A DNA stretch of 64,000 nucleotides from the human T2T-CHM13v2.0 reference genome, Homo sapiens. The position numbers and the translations under genes were made by a program. The notes under the pieces were generated by a model. The model ran no database searches. It was not told the DNA's origin and saw only the letters and a list, made by a program, of their open reading frames with translations. The DNA is taken from NCBI RefSeq assembly GCF_009914755.1, contig NC_060941.1. One strand, written 5' to 3'. Within the stretch, counting starts at the first letter, position 1; every line of letters begins with the position of its first letter. Positions 40,615-53,475 of this stretch are shown here, piece after piece.

Positions 40615-40760
40615 AGACAGGGTCTCACTATGTTGCTCAGGCTGGACTCAAACTCCTAGGCTCAAAGGATCCCTCAGCATCGCAAGTAGCTGGGATTACA
40701 GGTACATGACACTGCCCTTGGCTCTGCTCTATTTTTATTATTTCCTTTCTTCTGCTACTT
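40615..40760 (-). repeat. 146-bp dispersed direct duplicate of 43895-44040 (FLAM monomer plus L1 flank)
   Basis: Ungapped hand alignment with 8 mismatches in 146 bp; includes the Alu/L1 junction of the source. Confidence 0.9.
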
Positions 40761-42582: not shown

Positions 42583-43854
42583 ATAGACGTATACCTAAGT
42601 AGTTAATTTTGGGGGTACTAATGTAAATAGTATTGTGTTTTTGGTTTAAAATTCCACTTATTCATTGCTGGTATAAATGAAAGCAGTTGATTTTTATTTA
42701 TTAACCTTGCATCCTGTAAACTTGCTATAATCACTTATCAGTTCCAAGAGTTTGTCGATTCTTTTGGATTCTCTATATAGACAATCACATCATCTGCAAA
42801 CAAAGAGAGTTCTATTTCTTCCTTTCCAATCTGTATACCTCTTATTTCCTTTTCTTGTGTATTGCATTAACTAAGATTTCTTTGATGTTAAAAAGGAGTG
42901 GTGAGAGGGGAATCACAATCAATGCCCTGTTTCTGATCTTAGAGAGAAAGCTTCTACTTTCTCACCATGAAGTTCAATGTTAGCTGTAGGTTTTTTGTAG
43001 ATGTTCTTTATCAAGTTGAGGAAGTTCACCTCTATTCCTAGTTTGCTGAGATTTTTTTTCATGAGTGGCTGCTGAATTTTATCAAATGATTTTTCTGCAT
43101 CTATTAATATGATCATATGATCACACAGATGCGATTGATTACATTTGCTGATTTTCAAATGTTGAGACAGCCCTGCATAACTGGGATACATTCCACTTGG
43201 CTCTGGTATATAATTCTTTTTGTACATTGTTAGATCAGTTTGCTAATATTTTGTTAAAGATTTTTTCATTTATGTTAATGGAATATAATGGTTAATAGAT
43301 TTTTTTTCTTATAATGCTTCTGTCTGGTTTTGGTATCAGGGTAATGCTGACCTCACAGGATGAGTTAGGAATTATTTCCTCTGTTTTTATCTTTTGAAAG
43401 AGATTGTAGAGGATTGGTATAATTTCTTCCTTAAAAGTTTGGCAGAATTTACCATTGAATCCATGTAGGCCTGGTGTATTCTGTTTTGGAAAAGGAGGGT
43501 CATTAATTATTGATTCGATTGCCTTAATAGATATATCCATTCAGATTATCTTTTTCTGCCTGTGCGAGTTTTGGCAGATTGTGTTTTTGGCAGATTGTGT
43601 CTAGGTTATCAAATCTATAAGCATATAATTGATCATAGTATTTATTTATAATACTTACAATACTCGTGGGCTCTTTAGTGATACCTCATTTTTCATTACT
43701 TTTATTAGATATTTATATTCTTTTTCTTTTTTTCTTAGTTTGCATGGCTAAAACCTATCAAATCTATTGATCTTTTCAAAGAACCAGCTTTTGGTTTCAT
43801 TGATTTTCTCTATTGATTTCCTGTTTTCAAGTTCATTGATTTCTGCTCTAATTC

Positions 43855-44002
43855 TTTTAAACTTTTTTTAAATTATTTTTATTTTTATTTTTAAAGACAG
43901 GGTCTCACTATGTTGCTCAGGCTGGATTCAAACTCCTAGGCACAAGGAATCCCTCAGCATCCCAAGTAGCTAGGATTACAGGTACATGACACTGCCTTTG
44001 GC
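43855..44002 (-). mobile_element. FLAM-type Alu monomer inserted in L1
   Basis: T-rich tail plus a single reverse monomer; TSD-like TCTGCTCTAATT / TCTGCCCTATTT. Confidence 0.85.
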
Positions 44003-46825
44003 TCTGCCCTATTTTTATTATTTCCTTTCTTCTGCTACTTTGGATTTAATTTGCTCTTCTTTTTCTTGTTTCCCAAATGAAAGCTTAGGCTATTGATTTT
44101 AGATATTTCTTCTTGTCTCATAAATGCATTCTATGTTATAAATTTCTCTTTAATCACTGCTTTCTCCCTATCACATAAATTTTGGTAAGTTCTGGTTTCA
44201 TTTAGTCCAAAATATTTTTAAATTTATATTGAGATTTCTTCTTTGACCCGTGTGATTTTTAAAGTGTGTTATATAATCCCAAAGTATTTGGGGATTTCCA
44301 CCTATCTTTCTGTTGATTTCTAGTTTAGTTCCATTGTGGTCTGAGATCAGATATTGTATGATTTCTACTCTTTTAAATTTGTTAAGATACGTTTTATGGC
44401 CCAGAATGTAGTCTATCTAGGGGAATGGTCCATGTGAGGTTGCAAAGAATGTGTATGCCGCTGCTGTTGGATGAAGTAGTCCAAGATATCCATTATTTCC
44501 AGTTGATTGATGGTGTTGTTGAATTCAACTATGTCCTTACTGATTTTTCTGCCTGCTGGATCTGTCCATTTATGATAGTGGGTATTAAAGTCTACAACTA
44601 TAATAGTAGATTCATCTATTTCTCCTTGAAGTTCTATCAGTTTTTGCCTCACATAGTTTTTGTTTGTTCGTTTTTGGTTTTTTTGCCTCACGTATTTTGA
44701 TGTTCTGTTAGGTACGTATACACCTGTTAAGGATTGATATGTCTTCCTGGATAATTAAACCCTTTATCATTATGTAATGGCTACCATATCCCTGATAATT
44801 TTTTGTCCTAAAGTCCACTGTATCTGAATTTAATATAACTACTAATTCTTTCTTCTGCTTAGTGTTAGTATGGTATATATTTTTTTTGATCCATTTACTT
44901 TAAACCTATATATGTCTTATATTTAAAGCAGGTTTCTTGGAGACAATATATAGTTGGGTCTTATTTTTTGATCCACTCTGACAATCTCTGCCTTTTAATT
45001 GGTATGTTTAGGCCATTGACATCCAAAGTGATTACTTGATATAGTTAGATCATAGCTACCATATTTGCTACTACTTTCTATTCATTGTCCTGGTTCAGTT
45101 TTCCTATTTTTGTCTTACACTGTTTTTCCTGCATTTTGTGGGTTTTAATTGAGCATATTCCATTTTCTCTCCATGCTTCTTTTTTAAAACATATTTTTTA
45201 CTGGTTGCCCTAGAGTTTATAATATATATTTATAAATAATCCAATTCCACTTTCAAATAACACTATATCATCTCATGGATAGTGGGAGTACCTTATATGA
45301 ATGAAATAATCCTAATTTACTCCTTGTTATTTTTTGTATTACTGCTGTCATTCATTTCACATATATGTAAGCTTATGTAAGTATATATGTCTGTATAAAT
45401 ATATATGAATATTGTTGCTGTTAATATTTTGAATAAACTGCTGTTAGGTCAATTATGAAGAAAAATAAAAGTTTTAATTTTATCTTCACTTATTCATTCT
45501 CTGATGCTCTATGTAGATCAAAGTTTCTTACCTATATCATTTTCATTTTATCTAAAAACTTCTTTTTAACATTTCTTGTGAGGCAGGTCTACTGGCAACA
45601 AACTCCCCCAATTTTTGTTTGTCTGAGAAAGTATTTCTCCTCCATTTTTGAAGAATAATTTTTCGAGGTACAGAATTCTAGATTCGTAGAGGTGTTTTCT
45701 CTCAACACTTGAGATTGTTCACTTCTCTCTCTTCACGCTTGCATGATTTCTTAGAAAACTGATGTAATTCTCACCTCTCCTTTTTATACGTAAGGTGTTT
45801 TTCTTTTCCCTCTGGCAGATTTCAATACTTTTTAAACATTTTTTATTTTCTGCATTTTGAATATGGTATGCCTAGGTGTGTAGCATGTTTTTTCTTTCAT
45901 TTATGCTGATTGGTGTTTTCTGAGCTTACAGATCTGTGGTTTGGTGTCTGACATTAATTTGGGGAAATTTTCAGTCTTTATTTCATTAAATATTTCTTCT
46001 GTTCCTTTCTCTCTTTCTTCCCCTTCCTTTATTCCCATATGTGTACATTACACCTTTTGTAGATGTCTCAACTACAAAAGATATTTTATTGTTTTTTTTC
46101 AGTCTTTTTTTTTCTCTTTGTTTTACAACTTTGGAAGTTTCTACTGAGATATCCTCAAGCTCAGATATTCTTTCTTCAGCTGTGTCCAGTCTACTGATGA
46201 GTCTATCACAGTCTTCATTTCTGTTAGGGTTTTTGATCTCTAGCATTTCTTTTTCATTCTTTCTTAGAATTTCCATCTCTCTGCTTACACTGCCCATCTC
46301 TTCTTGCATGCCATCTACTTTATCCATTAAAACCCTTAGCACATTAATCGTAGCTGTTTTAAATTCCTGGTCTGATAATTTTAAGATCTCTGTCATATAT
46401 GAGTCTGGTTCTGATGCTTGCTCTGTCTCTTCAAGCTGTGTTTTTTGCCTTTTTTGTATGCCTTGTAATTTTTTTTTCCTTATAGCTGGACATGATGTAT
46501 TGGGTATATGGAACTGCAGTGAAAAAGGCTTTAATCATGTGGTGGTAACGTGTTAGGGAAGAGGAAGTATTCTACAGTCCTATAACTAGGTCAGTCTTTT
46601 AGTAAGCCTGTGCCTCTGGGCTGTAAATGTCACGGTGCTTCTCAGTTTCTCCCCCTCCTAGCTCAACCAGGATGGTTCAAGAATGGAGGGATCTGGACTT
46701 GTGTATTTTCCATCCCCCATATAGAAGGCTAGAGTTGGCTGTAGGTGGTTATCTCCCTTCCCCCAGATTGGTTAGGCTCTGAAAAATCCCCAATAATTTA
46801 GGTGCTTGTAAAACCATTTTTCTTG

Positions 46826-47957
46826 GTATTTTGTTGCTGTTGGATACAAAGTTATATATAGCCCATTTTGTCTAAAGCACAATTCAATGTCAGTATTTCC
46901 CTTTTAATTTTCTGTCTCATTATCGGTCTGTTGTTGATGGGGGATATTGAAGTCCCCACTATTACTGTATTGCTATCTATTTCTCCCTTCATGTCCATTA
47001 ATATTTGCTTTATATATTTAGGTGCTCTAATGTCTAATGTCTAATGTGCTCTAATGTCTAATATATATTTACACTTGTTATATCCTCTTGATGAATGTCC
47101 TCTTTATCATTAGTGACTTTTTTTGTCTCTTATGAAAGTTTTTGACTTGATGTCTATTTTAAATCTAAATATGGCCACTTCTGTTCTCTTTTTTTTTTTA
47201 CCATTTGTGTGCAATAGCTTCTTCCATCCCTTCACTTTCAGCCTATGTATATCCTTAAGGCTAATGTGGGTCTCTCATAGGAAGCATATAATTGGATCTT
47301 GATTTTTTATTCATTAAACTACTCTGTGTCTTTGGATTGGAAAATTTAATCCATTTGTAATTATTGACATTTAAGGACTTACTACTGCTATGCTGTTTAT
47401 TGTCTCCTGGTTGTTTTGTATATCCTTTGTTCCTTTTTTCCTTTCTGATTTGCCTTCATGATTTGGTGATCTTCTATAGTGTTAGGTGTTTATTCTTTTT
47501 TCTTTATTTTTTTGTGTATCTGCTATAGTGTTTTGCTTTGTGGTTACCACAAGGCTTACGTAAAATGTCTTATAGTTATATAATAATTGACTATTTTACA
47601 CTAACAACTTAATTTTTTCCACATACAAAAACTCTAAACATTTATCCTCCACCCTGCTTGATCTAGTCTGCTGTTGAAGCTCTCTATTGCATTTTTAAAT
47701 TTCATTCATTGAATTCTTCAGGTCCAAGATTTCTGTTCGGTTCTTCGTTATGATACCTATCTCTGTTGAATTTCTCATTCAGATCATAAACTGATTGATA
47801 TCATCAAATTATCTCTCTATATTCTCTTGTAATTTTTTTGAGTTTCCTTTTCTTATTTTGAATTGCTTTACAAACAATTCATACATTTTCTTTTCTTTGG
47901 GGTCAGTTACTAAAGAATTATTGTGTTCTTTGGTAGTGTCATATTTCTTTCCTTTTT
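46826..47957 (-). repeat. Left arm of a 1.13-kb inverted repeat (derived copy of 48540-49678)
   Basis: Reverse complement of 48540-49678 with 8 substitutions and 3 small indel sites by hand alignment. Flanked by 32-bp direct repeats at 46797-46828 and 47956-47987. Confidence 0.96.
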
Positions 47958-48539
47958 TAGGTGCTTGTAAAACAGTTTTTCTTGGTAGGCTCTGTTAAGT
48001 GCAACAAAGTGCTCTGGTGTATTTCACAATGGTCACTTTTCTCCTTCCCCTGCCAGAAGCACAAATGATTTTTTTCTACAATATTCATGACGAGAACCTG
48101 GTCAAGCTCCTGGGGGCAAAACTCACAAAAGCCCAACACTGCTATGGCTGCTTGCAAGCCATGTTAGACCCAATACCAAGAGAGTTTCCCTCAGCTAAGA
48201 CTCTCCATTGTGGGGAACATTTAAACAGAAGGACCCCAAGAGCCTGTGCTACTGTGAACTCTCACAATATGTTGCTGCCACTGCTTCCCTAAACTCTTAT
48301 AGCCTATGGCACTGAGGTACCCACAGTCATCTGTGATACTGATCACAGCTGAAGAAGCTGCATGGAGGCTTGACCACTGCATCTATCCAGAAGCAGGGCC
48401 AGCACACCCTTTTCAACCAGCACATTAAGGTCTATCTGCAGATGAAAATATTTTCCTATGAAAGTAACTCTGTAAAGTTTGGAAGTGGTGACTGTTTCAT
48501 CAGATGTGAAGACACCAATTCAGAAACACAAGAAACATG

Positions 48540-49678
48540 AAAAAGGAAGGAAATATGACACCACCAAAGAACACAATAATTCTTTAGTAACTGACCCCAA
48601 AGAAAAGAAAATGTATGAATTGTTTGTAAAGCAATTCAAAATAAGAAAAGGAAACTCAAAAAAATTACAAGAGAATATAGAGAGACAATTTGATGATATC
48701 AATCAGTTTATGATCTGAATGAGAAATTCAACAGAGATAGGTATCATAACGAAGAACCGAACAGAAATCTTGGACCTGAAGAATTCAATGAATGAAATTT
48801 AAAAATGCAATAGAGAGCTTCAACAGCAGACTAGATCAAGCAGGGTGGAGGATAAATGTTTAGAGTTTTTGTATGTGGAAAAAATTAAGTTGTTATCAGT
48901 GTAAAATAGTCAATTATTATATAACTATAAGACATTTTACGTAAGCCTTGTGGTAACCACAAAGCAAAACACTATAGCAGATACACAAAAAAATAAAGAA
49001 AAAAGAATAAACACCTAACACTATAGAAGATCACCAAATCATGAAGGCAAATCAGAAAGGAAAAAAGGAACAAAGGATATACAAAACAACCAGGAGACAA
49101 TAAACAGCATAGCAGTAGTAAGTCCTTAAATGTCAATAATTACAAATGGATTAAATTTTCCAATCCAAAGACACAGAGTAGTTCAATGAACAAAAAATCA
49201 AGATCCAATTATATGCTTCCTATGAGAGACCCACATTAGCCTTAAGGATATACATAGGCTGAAAGTGAAGGGATGGAAGAAGCTATTGCACGCAAATGGT
49301 AAAAAAAAAAAAAAGAGAGAACAGAAGTGGCTATATTTAGATTTAAAATAGACATCAAGTCAAAAACTTTCATAAGAGACAAAAAAGTCACTAATGATAA
49401 AGAGGACATTCATCAAGAGGATATAACAAGTGTAAATATATATTAGACATTAGAGCACATTAGACATTAGACATTAGAGCACCTAAATATATAAAGCAAA
49501 TATTAATGGACATGAAGGGAGAAATAGATAGCAATACAGTAATAGTGGGGACTTCAATATCCCCCATCAACAACAGACCGATAATGAGACAGAAAATTAA
49601 AAGGGAAATACTGACATTGAATTGTGCTTTAGACAAAATGGGCTATATATAACTTTCTATCCAACAGCAACAAAATAC
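48540..49678 (+). repeat. Right arm (source) of the 1.13-kb inverted repeat
   Basis: Continuous with the surrounding plus-strand L1 on both sides. Confidence 0.96.
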
Positions 49679-50603
49679 ACATTCTCCTTTAGTGCACATG
49701 GAACATTCTCCAGTACAGACTACATGGTGGGCCATAAAACAAGTCTTAAATTTAAGAAGATCAAAATCATGTCAAGTATTATTTCTGGCCACAATGGTAT
49801 AAAATTAGAAATCAATAACAGAATTAACTTTGGAAAATTCACAAATATGTGGAAATTAAACAACTGGCTCTAAATAATCAATGGATCAAAGAAGAAATCA
49901 AAAGAAAAATTGAAAACGATCTTGAGACAAATGATAATGAAAACACAACATACCAAAACCTATGGGATGCCCAAAAGCATAAACGTCCCATAAGAGGAAA
50001 GTTTATAGCAACAAATGTCTACATTTAAAAAGAAGATCCCAAATAGCCTAACATTAAGCCTCACAGAATTAGAAAATGAACAAATTAAACCCAAAGTTAG
50101 CAGAAGGAAGGAAATTAATAAATATCAGAAAAGAAATAAATAGAGAATAGAAAAACCACAGGAAAAAAACAATAAAACTAAGAGTTGGTTTTTGAAAAAA
50201 TGAACAAAATTGATAAACTCTTAGTTATACCAGCTTAAAAAAAGAAAGAGAAGATTCAAATATATAAACTCAGATATGAAAGTGGAGACATTACAAAAGA
50301 TGTTCTCAGAAACAAAATAGATCATAAGGAACTATTATTAACAATTATATGTCAACATAGTTGATCATCTAGGGTAAACAGATTAATTCCTAGGAAAATA
50401 TAACTGAAGAAGGTTGAATAAAAAAGAAATAGCTTGAACAGGCCAATAAAAAATGAAGAGATTGAAGTAGTAATTTAAAATCTCCCCAAGAAAGAAAAGC
50501 CCAAAACCAGATGTCTTCATGGCTGAATTCTACCAAACTTTCAAAAAAGAATTAATACCAACACTTCTTAAATACTTCCAAAATAAAAAAGAGCTGGATA
50601 ATA

Positions 50604-51044
50604 CAGCTGACCCTTGAACAACATGGAGGTTAGTGGTGCTGACCACCCCCCAAATGCAGTCAAAAATCTGCATGTAACATTTGACTACCCCAAAACTTAA
50701 CTACTAATAGCCAACTGTTGACTGGAAGCCTTACTGATAACATGAACAATCAATTAACACATATTTTATATATTACATTTATCCTACACTTTATTTTTAC
50801 AGTAAAGTAAGCTAGAGAAAACAAAATGTTATAAAAATAATAAAGAAGAGAAAATATATTTAATATTCATTAAGTGGGAAGTGGATCATCCTAAAGGTCT
50901 TCATCCGTGACATCTTGATGTTGAGTAGGCTGAGAAGAAGGAAAAGGAGTTGGTCTTGCTGTCTCAGGGGTGGCAGAGGCAGAAGAAAATCTGCAGATAA
51001 GTAGACCCATGCAGTTCAAACCTGTGTCGTTCAAGGGTCAACAC
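50604..51044. mobile_element. Tigger2a (MER28) MITE nested in L1 ORF2
   Basis: TA|CAGCTGACCCTTGAACAAC ... GTTCAAGGGTCAAC..|TA, about 440 bp. Confidence 0.88.
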
Positions 51045-53475
51045 TACTTCCTAACACATTTTATGAGGCAGCATTACCTTGATACCTAAGCCAGACAAAG
51101 CAACATAGGAAAACTATAGGCCAATCTCTCTGAAGAACATTGATGCAAAACTCTTCAATAAAATATTATCAAACCAAATTCAACAACACATCAATACATC
51201 ATGATTAAGTGGGTTTTACCCCTGACATGCAAGGCTGGTTTAATATACACAAATCAATCAGTGTGATCATTAACAAACCACATGATCATATCAGTTGACA
51301 AAAAAGCATTCAATACAGCTCAATGTCTGATTTGATAAAAACTTTTAACAGTTTAGATACAGATGGAAAGTTCTTCAACATAATAAAGCCTATTTGAGTA
51401 AAACCCACAGCTAACATCATAATCAACGGGGAGAAACTGAAAGCTTTTTCTCTAAGATCTGGTATAAGGTAAGGATGCCAACTCTTAGCACTTCTACTGA
51501 GCAGAGTACTGGAGGTGCTATCAAGAACCATTAGACAGTAAGAAGAAATAACAGGTATTCAAGCTGGATAAAAAAGAAGTAAAATTATGTCTATTTGCAG
51601 ATGACATGATCGTGTATGTGAAAAATCCCAAAGATTGCACACAAAAAACTATTAGATCTAATAAATTAACTCCATAAAGTTGCAAGATATAAAATCAATA
51701 TATAAAAATCTGACATTTCTATACACAACAATGTAGCCAAAAAGGAAATTGAGAAAACAATCTCATTTACAATCACATCAAAAAAATAAAATAGGAATAA
51801 ATTTAACCAAGGAGAGACCTGTACACTGAAAACTATAAAACATTAATAAAAGAAATTGAAGAGGACACAAAGAAATAAGATATTCCATGCTCTTGGATTG
51901 GCAGAATTAATATTTTTTAAATGTCCATACTACTCCCAAAGGAATATATAGATGCAATGCAAACCCTATCAAAATTTCAATGACAGTCTTCACAGAAATA
52001 GAAAAAAAACCTAAAATTCATAAGGACCCACAAAAGACCCCAAATAGCCAATGCAATTCTGAGAAAAATAAAGTTGGAGGCATCACAAATCCTGATTTAA
52101 AATTGTATTACAAAGCTGTGGCAACCAAAATTGTATGGTACTGATATAGAAACAGATGCCTAGACTAATAGAACAGTATAGAGAGCCCAGAAATAAATCC
52201 AAACATATATGGCCAACTAATTTTCAGCAAGGGCAACAAGAAAACACAGTGAGGAAAAGATAGTTTCTTCGATAAATAGTGCTGGGAAAACTGTATTTCT
52301 ACATGTAAAAGAATAAAATTGGACCCTTGTCTTATGCCATACATAAAAATCAACTGTCTCTCCAAATTTGGGAGCAGCAGTTTGCCCTGTGAGTTTACTT
52401 CTCTGATAAATATAAAAAATGCTGATCAGTTTTTTTCCTGCTTTTTACTTGTTGTTAGGATGAATGGCAACTTCCAAGCACCTTACATGCCAGGGCAGAA
52501 ACTGGAAATTAAGCTAAAAATAACATTTTAAATATCCAAATGGTTCCCAGAGAGACAAGGAGTAAGTTTACTGAATAATCTCAGTTATCTCTGAGATAGT
52601 ATCACATCATCTAACATATGTGTAGTTGTATCCCAGAAAGAGAAAGAGGTTTGGAAAAATATTTGCAGATGGAATGGCTGAAAATTTTCCAAAATGAAAA
52701 AAAAAACCTCTAAGACCACAAGTCCAAAAGATCATCAAACAAACAAACAAACAAAAGATGAGATAAATACAGAGAAAACTATATCAAGGCATAACATAAT
52801 AAAATTGCAAAGAAAAGAAATAAATATAAAATCTTATAAGCAGCCAGAGAAAACAGATACATTAAAAAGACAGGAATCAATGAAGATTTCTCATCTGAAA
52901 AGTCAGCGAACAATACAATGAATCTTTAAAGTGCTGAAATTAAAAAAAAAATCTGTTAATCTAGAAATGCACATCCAGTGAAACTATCCTTCCAAACTGA
53001 AAGTGAAAAGCACACATATTCAAAGAAAAATTGGAGAGAATTTGTCACCAGTAGATGTGCACTACAAAAAAGGTTGAAATAAGTCGTTCAGGCAGATGGA
53101 CCTGATACTAAATGGAAACCTGGATGAAACCAAGGGAACAAATAGTACTGGACATAAAAAAAGTGTGTAAATATAAATTACTTTTTCTTCTCACGTTAAA
53201 ATTTCTTTAAAAGACAATTGAATATTTAAAGCAATAATAACAAATTGCGAGGTTTATAATACTTGCAGAAACATAGAATATGAATGTGGAAATGGAAGTA
53301 TACTGTTAAGAAACTTACATTTTATATGATCTGGTACAACAGTAGGTGAAGACAGACTGTAATTAAGATGTATATAATAAAACCTAGATCAACAACTATA
53401 AAAACCAACAGTGAAGAGGTATAGCTAATAAGCTAATAGTAGAAATAAAATAAAATGTTAAGAAATAATTAATTC

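What the first reader, a model, noticed from the sequence alone, without database searches (positions are those of the whole stretch)
46797..49678. Young, near-perfect 1.13-kb inverted duplication with a 32-bp target duplication inside old L1 sequence (template-switch scar)
Seen: 46826-47957 is the reverse complement of 48540-49678. By hand I count 8 substitutions and 3 small indel sites (~99% identity), although the host L1 is heavily decayed. Both arms share private lesions (the ORF1 deletion junction CTAGATCAAGCAGGGTGGAG and a tandem (TCTAATG) stutter), so one was copied locally from the other and they are not two L1 insertions. The left arm is bracketed by a 32-bp direct repeat TTTAGGTGCTTGTAAAAC(CA/AG)TTTTTCTTGGTA (46797-46828, 47956-47987), with microhomology GTA at one junction and TT at the other, and has no poly-A. 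Established: TPRT gives TSDs usually under 20 bp plus a poly-A, whereas microhomology-joined inverted templated inserts are typical of FoSTeS/MMBIR. Inference: a nascent strand jumped about 1.7 kb ahead onto the opposite strand, copied 1.13 kb backwards, then re-annealed 32 bp before its exit point. The event is recent, or the arms have since been homogenised by gene conversion.
Basis: partly seen in the sequence, partly recalled or inferred. Interest (0 to 1): 0.82.

Follow-up and report, generated by a model that had tools for sequence, protein, structure and literature searches.

The report
Local inverted copy-paste insertion between L1s
A 1.13-kb piece of an old, decayed L1 repeat in a CEP112 intron was copied backwards into a neighbouring L1 about 0.55 kb away, leaving repair-type junctions; this is a clean but ordinary example of a known kind of structural mutation.

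Summary
Window 46826-47957 is the reverse complement of 48540-49678, with 8 substitutions and 3 small indels. A 32-bp direct repeat (30 of 32 identical) brackets the left arm, with GTA and TT overlaps at the junctions and no poly-A.

In the whole CHM13 genome the next-best copies are 73% identical or less. None carries the shared roughly 860-bp ORF1 deletion or the roughly 20-nt stutter.

The right arm sits in its native L1 context. The left arm interrupts a second, oppositely oriented old L1, whose paralogues carry the 32-mer once. So the left arm is the insert.

The best reading is a DNA-templated, microhomology-primed inverted insertion (template switch or fold-back repair), not retrotransposition.

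New here:
- Six of 7 polarisable substitutions and a 3-bp deletion are derived in the inserted copy.
- Three substitutions, plus a derived dinucleotide change in one 32-mer, lie 9-22 nt from the junctions (calibrated p = 0.016).

This pattern fits error-prone priming, but also fits an older repeat homogenised internally by gene conversion. The age could not be tested because no primate or pangenome data were available. This is a new member of a known kind, of modest interest.

The parts
44680..46796 (-). Body of the target element: 5' part of an old L1 on the minus strand (ORF2 start, ORF1 region, 5' UTR), upstream of the insertion site
   Evidence: Paralogues align continuously across 44680-46795 at 71-78%. 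Positions 44011-44472 are an inverted 68% match to 49659-50125. The minus-strand frame 44416-44754 gives a weak Exo_endo_phos_2 hit (E 1.1e-5, 25.7 bits, below the 27.4 cut-off).
46797..46828 (.). 32-bp target duplication, copy 1, carrying a derived CA dinucleotide at 46815-46816
   Evidence: family D1. All 3 paralogues that cover the dinucleotide (L028, L029, L055) have AG, as copy 2 does.
46826..47957 (-). Left arm: the inserted inverted copy (L1 sense on the minus strand). It overlaps the 32-mers by GTA on the left and TT on the right.
   Evidence: It interrupts a repeat that is contiguous in paralogues. It carries 6 of 7 polarised substitutions and a derived 3-bp deletion.
47956..47987 (.). 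32-bp target duplication, copy 2 (ancestral AG state)
47988..48131 (-). Last ~144 bp (5' terminus) of the minus-strand L1, cut off from its body by the insert; first part of the spacer
   Evidence: Paralogues of the left flank continue into 47957-48131, and 7 of them stop at 48131.
48134..48539 (+). 5' UTR of the plus-strand L1 (donor element); second part of the 582-nt spacer
   Evidence: Eight paralogue matches cover query 179-233 to 888 of window 47956-50300, i.e. 48134-48843, running through the arm boundary at 48540.
48540..49678 (+). Right arm: the donor, in native L1 context. It runs from the start of ORF1, across a private ~860-bp deletion junction at 48843/48844, to about residue 190 of ORF2p.
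   Evidence: The frame 49601-49870 matches human LINE-1 ORF2p residues 180-256 (E 2.7e-10, PDB 8sxt). The deletion size comes from one paralogue matched on both sides (C3:54434293-54435005 and 54435865-54436925).
49679..51459 (+). Continuation of the donor L1 (ORF2), not copied
   Evidence: At least 30 paralogue matches run through 49678. There is an old inverted similarity of 51045-51459 to 42935-43374.

Best explanation
This is a DNA-templated, microhomology-primed 'copy-and-paste' insertion. A free 3' end arose in the 5' UTR of the minus-strand L1. It paired through 2-3 T's with the complementary strand 0.55 kb away, at the start of ORF1 of the neighbouring plus-strand L1. This happened either by folding back on its own resected strand or by switching strand at a broken or stalled fork. 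The end was extended for 1.13 kb, then released and rejoined to the other side of the lesion through a GTA overlap.

Thirty-two bp of the target ended up on both sides. This came either from 32-nt complementary 3' tails at a staggered break or from re-copying of the target.

The event probably happened within the last few million years.

Shown: the structure, the direction of copying (right arm to left arm), the microhomologies, the lack of retrotransposition marks, and the absence of another donor.

Inferred: the kind of lesion, the polymerases involved, and the age.
For: Donor intact and in native context, insert in foreign context.

No other copy above 73% identity among the candidates scored (40 of 7260) in the whole assembly.

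Both junctions have overlaps (GTA; TT) and no filler bases. In a published simulation only 134 of 1000 random junctions had 2 bp or more of microhomology (PMC3907307, Methods passage).

A single-copy spacer (582 nt here) with 2-8 bp of inverted microhomology at the edge of the inverted copy is the signature of fold-back inverted duplications (same paper; their spacers were 766-70,466 bp).

Templated insertions that return to the host chromosome and 'rereplicate a segment' of it are a named class, 'cycles' (PMC7025897, passage).

Six of 7 polarised substitutions and the 3-bp deletion are derived in the insert. One-sided binomial p is 0.06 for substitutions alone and 0.035 with the deletion.

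Three of 8 substitutions lie 9, 21 and 22 nt from the arm ends (calibrated p = 0.016). All three are derived in the insert. A derived dinucleotide change lies 10-11 nt from the left junction, in 32-mer copy 1. BIR and MMBIR are described as error-prone, with point mutations acquired together with the rearrangement (PMC4352052, Discussion passage).

Interior divergence is 5 of 1082, which gives about 2.3-4.6 My.
Against: No outgroup or population data could be consulted, so both age and polymorphism are untested.

The 32-mers differ at 2 of 32 against 8 of 1131 in the arms (Fisher p = 0.029 if counted as two changes, 0.22 if counted as one event). This, together with the end-clustered differences, is also what an older duplication with internal gene conversion predicts.

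The polarity asymmetry is only marginal. It relies on a majority of paralogues that are themselves about 27-30% diverged. One site (49184/47316) could not be polarised.

Microhomologies of 2-3 nt are short.

Short-range template switches with the return point upstream of the exit point were not observed (PMC5453318), so a simple within-fork version is disfavoured.

DNA and RNA templates cannot be distinguished from this sequence.
Confidence: 0.6

Rival explanations
1. The origin is the same (an inverted templated insertion), but the event is old, tens of millions of years. Repeated intrachromosomal gene conversion between arms only 582 bp apart has kept the arms near-identical. Only the arm edges and the 32-mers have been left to diverge.
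For: The 32-mers differ at 2 of 32 (6%). The outer 22 nt of the arm ends hold 3 of the 8 substitutions, while the interior differs at 0.46%. The substitutions are mildly clumped overall (sum of squared spacings p = 0.05). Maintenance of palindrome arms by gene conversion is documented (abstract of PMC6790999 in the listing).
Against: All four junction-proximal changes are derived on the insert side, whereas an even split is expected under conversion (p about 0.06). Conversion would have had to reach within about 22 nt of both ends of a 1.13-kb homology. The interior cluster is not significant (p = 0.27). The dinucleotide change in the 32-mer may be a single event (Fisher p = 0.22).
Confidence: 0.22
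2. An RNA-templated patch. A stretch of nascent RNA from the locus was reverse-transcribed and used to fill a staggered double-strand break. The RNA could be CEP112 pre-mRNA, which contains the antisense of the right arm, or an L1-sense transcript.
For: The locus is intronic in a transcribed gene (hub annotation), so a template RNA would be present in cis. Class 2 templated sequence insertions lack poly-A and show microhomology (PMC5110952, passages).
Against: Class 2 events are described as lacking target duplications, whereas here 32 bp are duplicated. Those insertions come from distant regions. The copied stretch offers no splice junction or poly-A tail that would mark RNA.
Confidence: 0.1
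3. Insertion by the L1 machinery: target-primed reverse transcription in trans, a class 1 templated insertion, or a twin-priming inversion.
For: A target-site duplication is present and the copied sequence is L1.
Against: There is no poly-A at either end. Neither end of the 32-mer on either strand resembles TTTT/A (criteria from PMC5110952). The donor is an element about 27-30% diverged from its paralogues, with roughly 860 bp of ORF1 missing. The 32-mers bracket only the inverted piece, not an inverted 5' part joined to a 3' part with a tail, so twin priming does not fit. My recollection that L1 duplications are usually under 20 bp comes from no call.
Confidence: 0.03
4. An assembly artefact, such as a chimeric fold-back read built into the assembly.
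For: None from the sequence. Read-level data could not be inspected.
Against: The arms differ at 8 substitutions and 3 indels. They are separated by 582 nt of unique sequence, and the insert is bracketed by a slightly diverged 32-bp duplication. Fold-back chimeras would give identical, abutting arms (my own knowledge, from no call).
Confidence: 0.02

Closest known systems
Templated insertion 'cycles' and inverted local two-break events of replication-type repair (FoSTeS/MMBIR; the PCAWG classification)
   Same: An extra copy of a nearby template is pasted in with the donor left intact. There are microhomology junctions without filler, and a short stretch of the host is copied twice (PMC7025897).
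   Different: Those events were catalogued as somatic events in tumours, usually with larger templates and often several strung together. This one is a single fixed or germline 1.13-kb template taken 0.55 kb away.
Fold-back inverted duplications with a single-copy spacer (Hermetz et al. 2014, PMC3907307)
   Same: An inverted copy is separated from its source by an unduplicated spacer, with 2-3 nt of inverted microhomology exactly at the spacer/inverted-copy junction.
   Different: Those are Mb-scale and end in terminal deletions, translocations or rings after a dicentric stage. Their spacers were 766 bp or more. Here synthesis stopped after 1.13 kb and the end was rejoined locally, with a 32-bp duplication.
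Short-range template-switch mutations (four-point model, Löytynoja and Goldman 2017, PMC5453318)
   Same: It is a switch-and-return event that copies a nearby fragment in reverse complement and creates a hairpin-forming inverted repeat in one step.
   Different: Those events are tens of bp long. Switch-point orders in which point 4 precedes point 1, as here (4-1-3-2, or its mirror 3-2-4-1), were not found among their 794 human-chimp events or their 90 human-human events.
Templated sequence insertion polymorphisms, classes 1 and 2 (Onozawa and Aplan, PMC5110952)
   Same: A non-transposon stretch of the genome is inserted elsewhere. The target duplication resembles class 1. The microhomology and the lack of poly-A resemble class 2.
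   Different: It fits neither class: it has a duplication without poly-A or a TTTT/A site. The donor is local and the copy inverted. An RNA origin is unproven.
Long, highly paired intramolecular dsRNA loci formed by inverted LINE sequences (dsRNAscan preprint, PMC11838218)
   Same: Arms over 300 bp and more than 96% paired, made of LINE sequence. That class has 2,018 predicted members in the human genome, most of them between inverted LINE elements.
   Different: 88% of those are intergenic, whereas this one lies in a CEP112 intron. I could not see their Table S5, so I do not know whether this locus is listed. The paper's main text does not mention CEP112 (0 occurrences).

Membership tests
Microhomology-mediated templated insertion (template switch / MMBIR-type) | The insert is a copy of a sequence that remains intact at its source | tested here: met
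   The right arm is continuous with L1 paralogues across both arm boundaries. The left arm is 99% identical to it.
Microhomology-mediated templated insertion (template switch / MMBIR-type) | Short microhomology at the junctions and no retrotransposition marks | tested here: met
   GTA and TT overlaps, no filler, no poly-A.
Microhomology-mediated templated insertion (template switch / MMBIR-type) | Error-prone synthesis near the breakpoints | tested here: inconclusive
   Three of 8 substitutions lie within 22 nt of the arm ends (calibrated p = 0.016) and are derived in the insert. Gene conversion that spares the edges predicts the same positions.
Microhomology-mediated templated insertion (template switch / MMBIR-type) | Dependence on replication or on a broken fork | not testable with these tools
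   Sequence alone does not separate a fork switch from fold-back repair of a staggered break.
L1-mediated insertion (TPRT, class 1 TSIP) | Target-site duplication | tested here: met
   A 32-bp repeat matching at 30 of 32.
L1-mediated insertion (TPRT, class 1 TSIP) | Poly-A tail at the 3' end of the insert | tested here: not met
   Both insert ends are fully templated by the donor.
L1-mediated insertion (TPRT, class 1 TSIP) | Insertion at a TTTT/A-like endonuclease site | tested here: not met
   On the plus strand the duplication starts TTTAGG after AATAA. On the minus strand it starts TACCAA after CAGAGCC.
L1 twin-priming inversion | The inverted 5' segment and the direct 3' segment with tail lie together inside one pair of target duplications, and the two segments are adjacent in L1 coordinates | tested here: not met
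   The 32-mers bracket only the inverted arm. The two arms cover the same L1 coordinates.
Fold-back inverted duplication | A single-copy spacer between the arms, with inverted microhomology at the spacer/inverted-copy junction | tested here: met
   A 582-nt spacer (47958-48539) and a TT(T) overlap at 47956-47958. Criteria are from PMC3907307.
Fold-back inverted duplication | [quoted passage not shown] | tested here: not met
   The event is interstitial. The flanks on both sides are contiguous in paralogues of the interrupted L1.
Short-range template-switch mutation (four-point model) | [quoted passage not shown] | tested here: met
Short-range template-switch mutation (four-point model) | A switch-point order among the observed types (point 1 before point 4) | tested here: not met
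   The 32-bp duplication means the return point lies upstream of the exit point. Such types were unobserved (PMC5453318).
Inverted repeat maintained by gene conversion | The repeat is older than the divergence of its arms implies (present in distant species, with species-specific shared changes) | not testable with these tools
   No primate genomes are held. Only the window's own assembly could be searched.

The most novel reading that the evidence does not exclude
The locus is a hominin-lineage 'fossil' of a single germline break-repair event. Its scars record the enzymology. After each of the microhomology-primed starts, the first roughly 10-25 nt were laid down by a low-fidelity polymerase. 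That produced a dinucleotide change and three substitutions, all on the new DNA, before faithful synthesis took over for about 1.1 kb. The return point lies upstream of the exit, a geometry absent from catalogued short template switches. This points to a staggered break with 32-nt 3' tails rather than a fork slip. As a by-product, the event created a 1.13-kb, roughly 99% paired hairpin in CEP112 pre-mRNA, one of the rare genic long dsRNAs.
Probability: 0.3. Interest if true: 0.5.

Novelty: new member of a known kind. Interest (0 to 1): 0.3.

Why it matters
By itself this is one more local inverted templated insertion, a class already known from genomic disorders, tumours and human-chimp comparisons. 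It is unusually legible, for three reasons:
- The donor and target lie in decayed L1s, so hundreds of paralogues can serve as outgroups.
- The empty site can be reconstructed.
- Every difference between copy and donor can be polarised.

That makes it a good test case for a specific question. Are point mutations next to rearrangement junctions made during the repair synthesis, or do they reflect later conversion dynamics? Ape and pangenome alignments would settle this quickly.

The product is also a kilobase-long, nearly perfect hairpin inside the pre-mRNA of an expressed gene. Such structures are rare in genes and are of interest as ADAR, MDA5 or Dicer substrates.

Tried and rejected
- A better donor elsewhere: rejected. 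A whole-assembly search with the left arm returned only the two arms above 73% identity (40 of 7260 first-look candidates were scored, so weaker copies are undercounted).
- A paralogous empty or filled site: none. The left flank matches only itself at 100%; the next best is 78%.
- Pfam on open stretches of the two L1s: 15 of 16 frames gave nothing and one gave a sub-threshold endonuclease hit.
- The ORF1 N-terminal frame 48476-48715 against solved structures: no match.
- An APOBEC-like or ADAR-like strand-coordinated pattern in the 8 differences: not seen. The changes derived in the insert are a mix of C-to-T, G-to-A, T-to-C and C-to-G in L1 sense, one of them at a CpG.
- Interior clustering of the differences (4 within 144 nt): not significant (p = 0.27).
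- The two homopolymer-length indels: not polarisable, because the A-runs are private to this L1.
- Pairing of the old head-to-head L1s as a guide for the fold-back: rejected. No similarity is detectable between their 5' regions, and the priming site (406 nt into the donor L1) does not mirror the target (about 145-176 nt into the other L1).
- Literature search for CEP112 together with 'inverted repeat': 0 papers.


Full report
**1. The observation**

The repeat finder on 45.0-51.5 kb returns four collinear inverted blocks that together cover 46826-47962 against 48535-49678, at 98-100%. It also returns a 32-nt direct repeat, 46797-46828 / 47956-47987, matching at 30 of 32.

A gapped alignment gives 1131 matches. 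Inside 46826-47957 / 48540-49678 there are 8 substitutions and 3 indels:
- an extra T at 47118;
- 5 extra nt at 49312-49316, in an A-run;
- 3 extra nt at 48896-48898.

The last three bases of 32-mer copy 1 (GTA, 46826-46828) and the first two of copy 2 (TT, 47956-47957) also belong to the arm. Neither end of the insert has an untemplated A or T tract.

A self-comparison of 38-60 kb shows this pair at 98.5% over 1140 columns. The best other L1-to-L1 similarity is 68%.

**2. Is it a local copy, and which arm is the copy?**

The window's own assembly could be searched. With the left arm as query, the only matches above 73% are the two arms themselves. This is among the 40 best of 7260 first-look candidates, so weak copies are undercounted, but a near-identical donor would have ranked first.

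No relative spans the deletion junction:
- Matches to the 5' side stop at query 886-888 of window 47956-50300. Eight rows stop exactly at 888.
- Matches to the 3' side start at 888-899.
- One relative is matched on both sides, with about 860 bp between the matches that the window lacks.

The roughly 20-nt tandem stutter present in both arms (families D2 and D3) is missing from 26 of 26 relatives that span the site. The two arms therefore share private lesions of a single decayed element.

The right arm is in native context. Eight relatives run from the 5' UTR through the boundary at 48540, and at least 30 rows run through 49678 into ORF2. The frame 49601-49870 matches human LINE-1 ORF2p residues 180-256 (E 2.7e-10).

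The left arm is in foreign context. The sequence to its left (44680-46828) and to its right (47956-48131) is one contiguous repeat in other genomic copies, and these carry the 32-mer once. Examples:
- L055: 46785 aligns to position 481 and 47957 to position 494.
- L029: 46795 aligns to 2470 and 47964 to 2478.
- L022: 46813 aligns to 2402 and 48003 to 2434.

So the left arm is the insert, and the pre-insertion site can be read from paralogues.

**3. Anatomy of the neighbourhood**

The interrupted repeat is not the donor L1. It is the 5' part of a second old L1 lying on the minus strand. The evidence:
- Its paralogues extend leftwards to 44680-45025.
- There they overlap sequence that matches ORF2-start regions of L1 loci in inverted orientation.
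- 44011-44472 is an inverted 68% match to 49659-50125.
- The minus-strand frame 44416-44754 gives a weak endonuclease-family hit (E 1.1e-5, below Pfam's cut-off).

Its paralogues stop at 48131, and the donor L1's paralogues start at 48134 or later. The two old L1s therefore lie head-to-head with abutting 5' ends.

The insertion site is about 145-176 bp inside the minus-strand L1. The donor segment begins 406 bp inside the plus-strand L1. The insert lies in the same orientation as the element it entered, but not at a homologous position. This rules out ordinary gene conversion between the two L1s.

**4. Polarity and placement of the differences**

I used 11-26 paralogues per site as an outgroup. 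I tallied bases at the differing columns only and built no consensus. The majority base agrees with the right arm at 6 substitution sites and with the left arm at 1. One site is unresolved. The 3 nt missing from the left arm are present in 13 of 13 relatives. The two homopolymer differences cannot be polarised.

So the inserted copy carries 6 of 7 polarised substitutions plus a deletion. One-sided p is 0.06 without the deletion and 0.035 with it.

Three substitutions lie 21, 22 and 9 nt from the arm ends. A scan over all cut-offs, calibrated by simulation, gives p = 0.016. All three are derived in the insert.

The CA/AG difference between the 32-mers is a derived change in copy 1, 10-11 nt from the left junction. 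Three of 3 paralogues that cover it have AG.

Overall clumping is marginal (p = 0.05) and the interior cluster is not significant (p = 0.27).

**5. Mechanism**

Retrotransposition is contradicted. There is no poly-A. There is no TTTT/A-like site at either end of the duplication on either strand (criteria in PMC5110952, passages read). The geometry does not fit twin priming.

The junction style is that of templated insertions made by template switching: overlaps of 3 and 2 nt, no filler, an intact donor nearby, and a copy in reverse complement.

Three descriptions yield the identical product:
2. Its mirror: a leftward-moving strand leaves at the left edge of the 32-mer, pairs through TTT 0.55 kb behind on the other template, copies 1.13 kb away from the fork, and returns via GTA to the right edge of the 32-mer.
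3. A break with 32-nt complementary 3' tails. After resection the right-hand tail folds back on its own strand at the T-run, is extended for 1.13 kb, and is then annealed by TAC/GTA to the left-hand tail.

Fold-back priming with a single-copy spacer and 2-8 bp of inverted microhomology is documented for large human inverted duplications. In that study's simulation, 134 of 1000 random junctions reached 2 bp or more (PMC3907307, passages).

Templated insertions that re-copy a stretch of the host are a named class, 'cycles' (PMC7025897, passage).

In the four-point model of short template switches, the types where the return precedes the exit were not seen in any of 794 human-chimp events or any of 90 human-human events. 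The authors attribute this to the need to reopen freshly made duplex (PMC5453318, passages). The present event has that geometry (4-1-3-2). I take this as favouring a break-based route over a simple fork slip, though their survey covered events of tens of bp only.

The junction-proximal, insert-side mutations fit the error-prone character ascribed to BIR and MMBIR (PMC4352052, Discussion passage). My recollection of Carvalho et al. 2013 and of the error rates of polymerases theta and zeta comes from no call.

**6. Age**

All 8 substitutions over 1131 sites give 3.5-7.1 My. The 5 interior ones over 1082 sites give 2.3-4.6 My. These use 1e-9 and 0.5e-9 substitutions per site per year, with wide Poisson limits. 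The rates are from my own knowledge.

If some differences were made during the copying, the event is younger than these figures.

Conversely, the 2 of 32 difference in the 32-mers and the edge-clustered differences would also arise if the repeat were old and conversion had homogenised the interior. Without ape or pangenome sequence I cannot decide. I put about 0.6 on a young DNA-templated event and about 0.2 on old-plus-conversion.

**7. Consequence**

The hub's annotation places the repeat in a CEP112 intron, with the gene on the minus strand, so both arms are transcribed in one pre-mRNA. The transcript can form a hairpin of about 1131 pairs with a 582-nt loop.

A preprint predicts only 2,018 human dsRNAs that are both longer than 300 bp and more than 96% paired. 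Most of these form between inverted LINE elements and 88% are intergenic (PMC11838218, section 10 read in full). Its main text does not name CEP112 and I could not see its tables. A full-text search for CEP112 together with 'inverted repeat' found no paper.

**8. Verdict**

Three points need correction or caution:
- The target element is a second, oppositely oriented L1, not the donor L1.
- The specific replicative path is not established.
- Youth is unproven.

This is a new member of a known kind, worth a short comparative follow-up rather than a major one.

Noticed in passing
window 42900-48131 (minus strand) and 48134-51460 (plus strand): Two old L1 elements lie head-to-head. They are 65-68% identical where comparable. 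By paralogue end-points their 5' ends abut within a few bases: 48131 against 48134 or later. Whether this tight abutment is chance or a trace of an older event was not examined.
   Followed up: partly
window 40615-40760 and 43895-44040: A 146-bp direct repeat, 94.5% identical and 3.3 kb apart. It comprises an antisense Alu-like fragment plus about 55 nt of adjoining non-Alu sequence. It is therefore another local copy of a composite stretch rather than two Alu insertions. Its junctions were not analysed.
   Followed up: no
window 49296-49332 and 47175-47205: The donor L1 carries a private A-run where its paralogues have mixed sequence. The run is 14 A's in the right arm and 11 in the left arm. 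It has changed length between the arms and also differs by a GA unit.
   Followed up: partly
window 48843/48844 and 47654/47655: The donor L1 lost about 860 bp, most of ORF1 judging from one paralogue matched on both sides, before the duplication. The deletion junction is present in both arms.
   Followed up: partly
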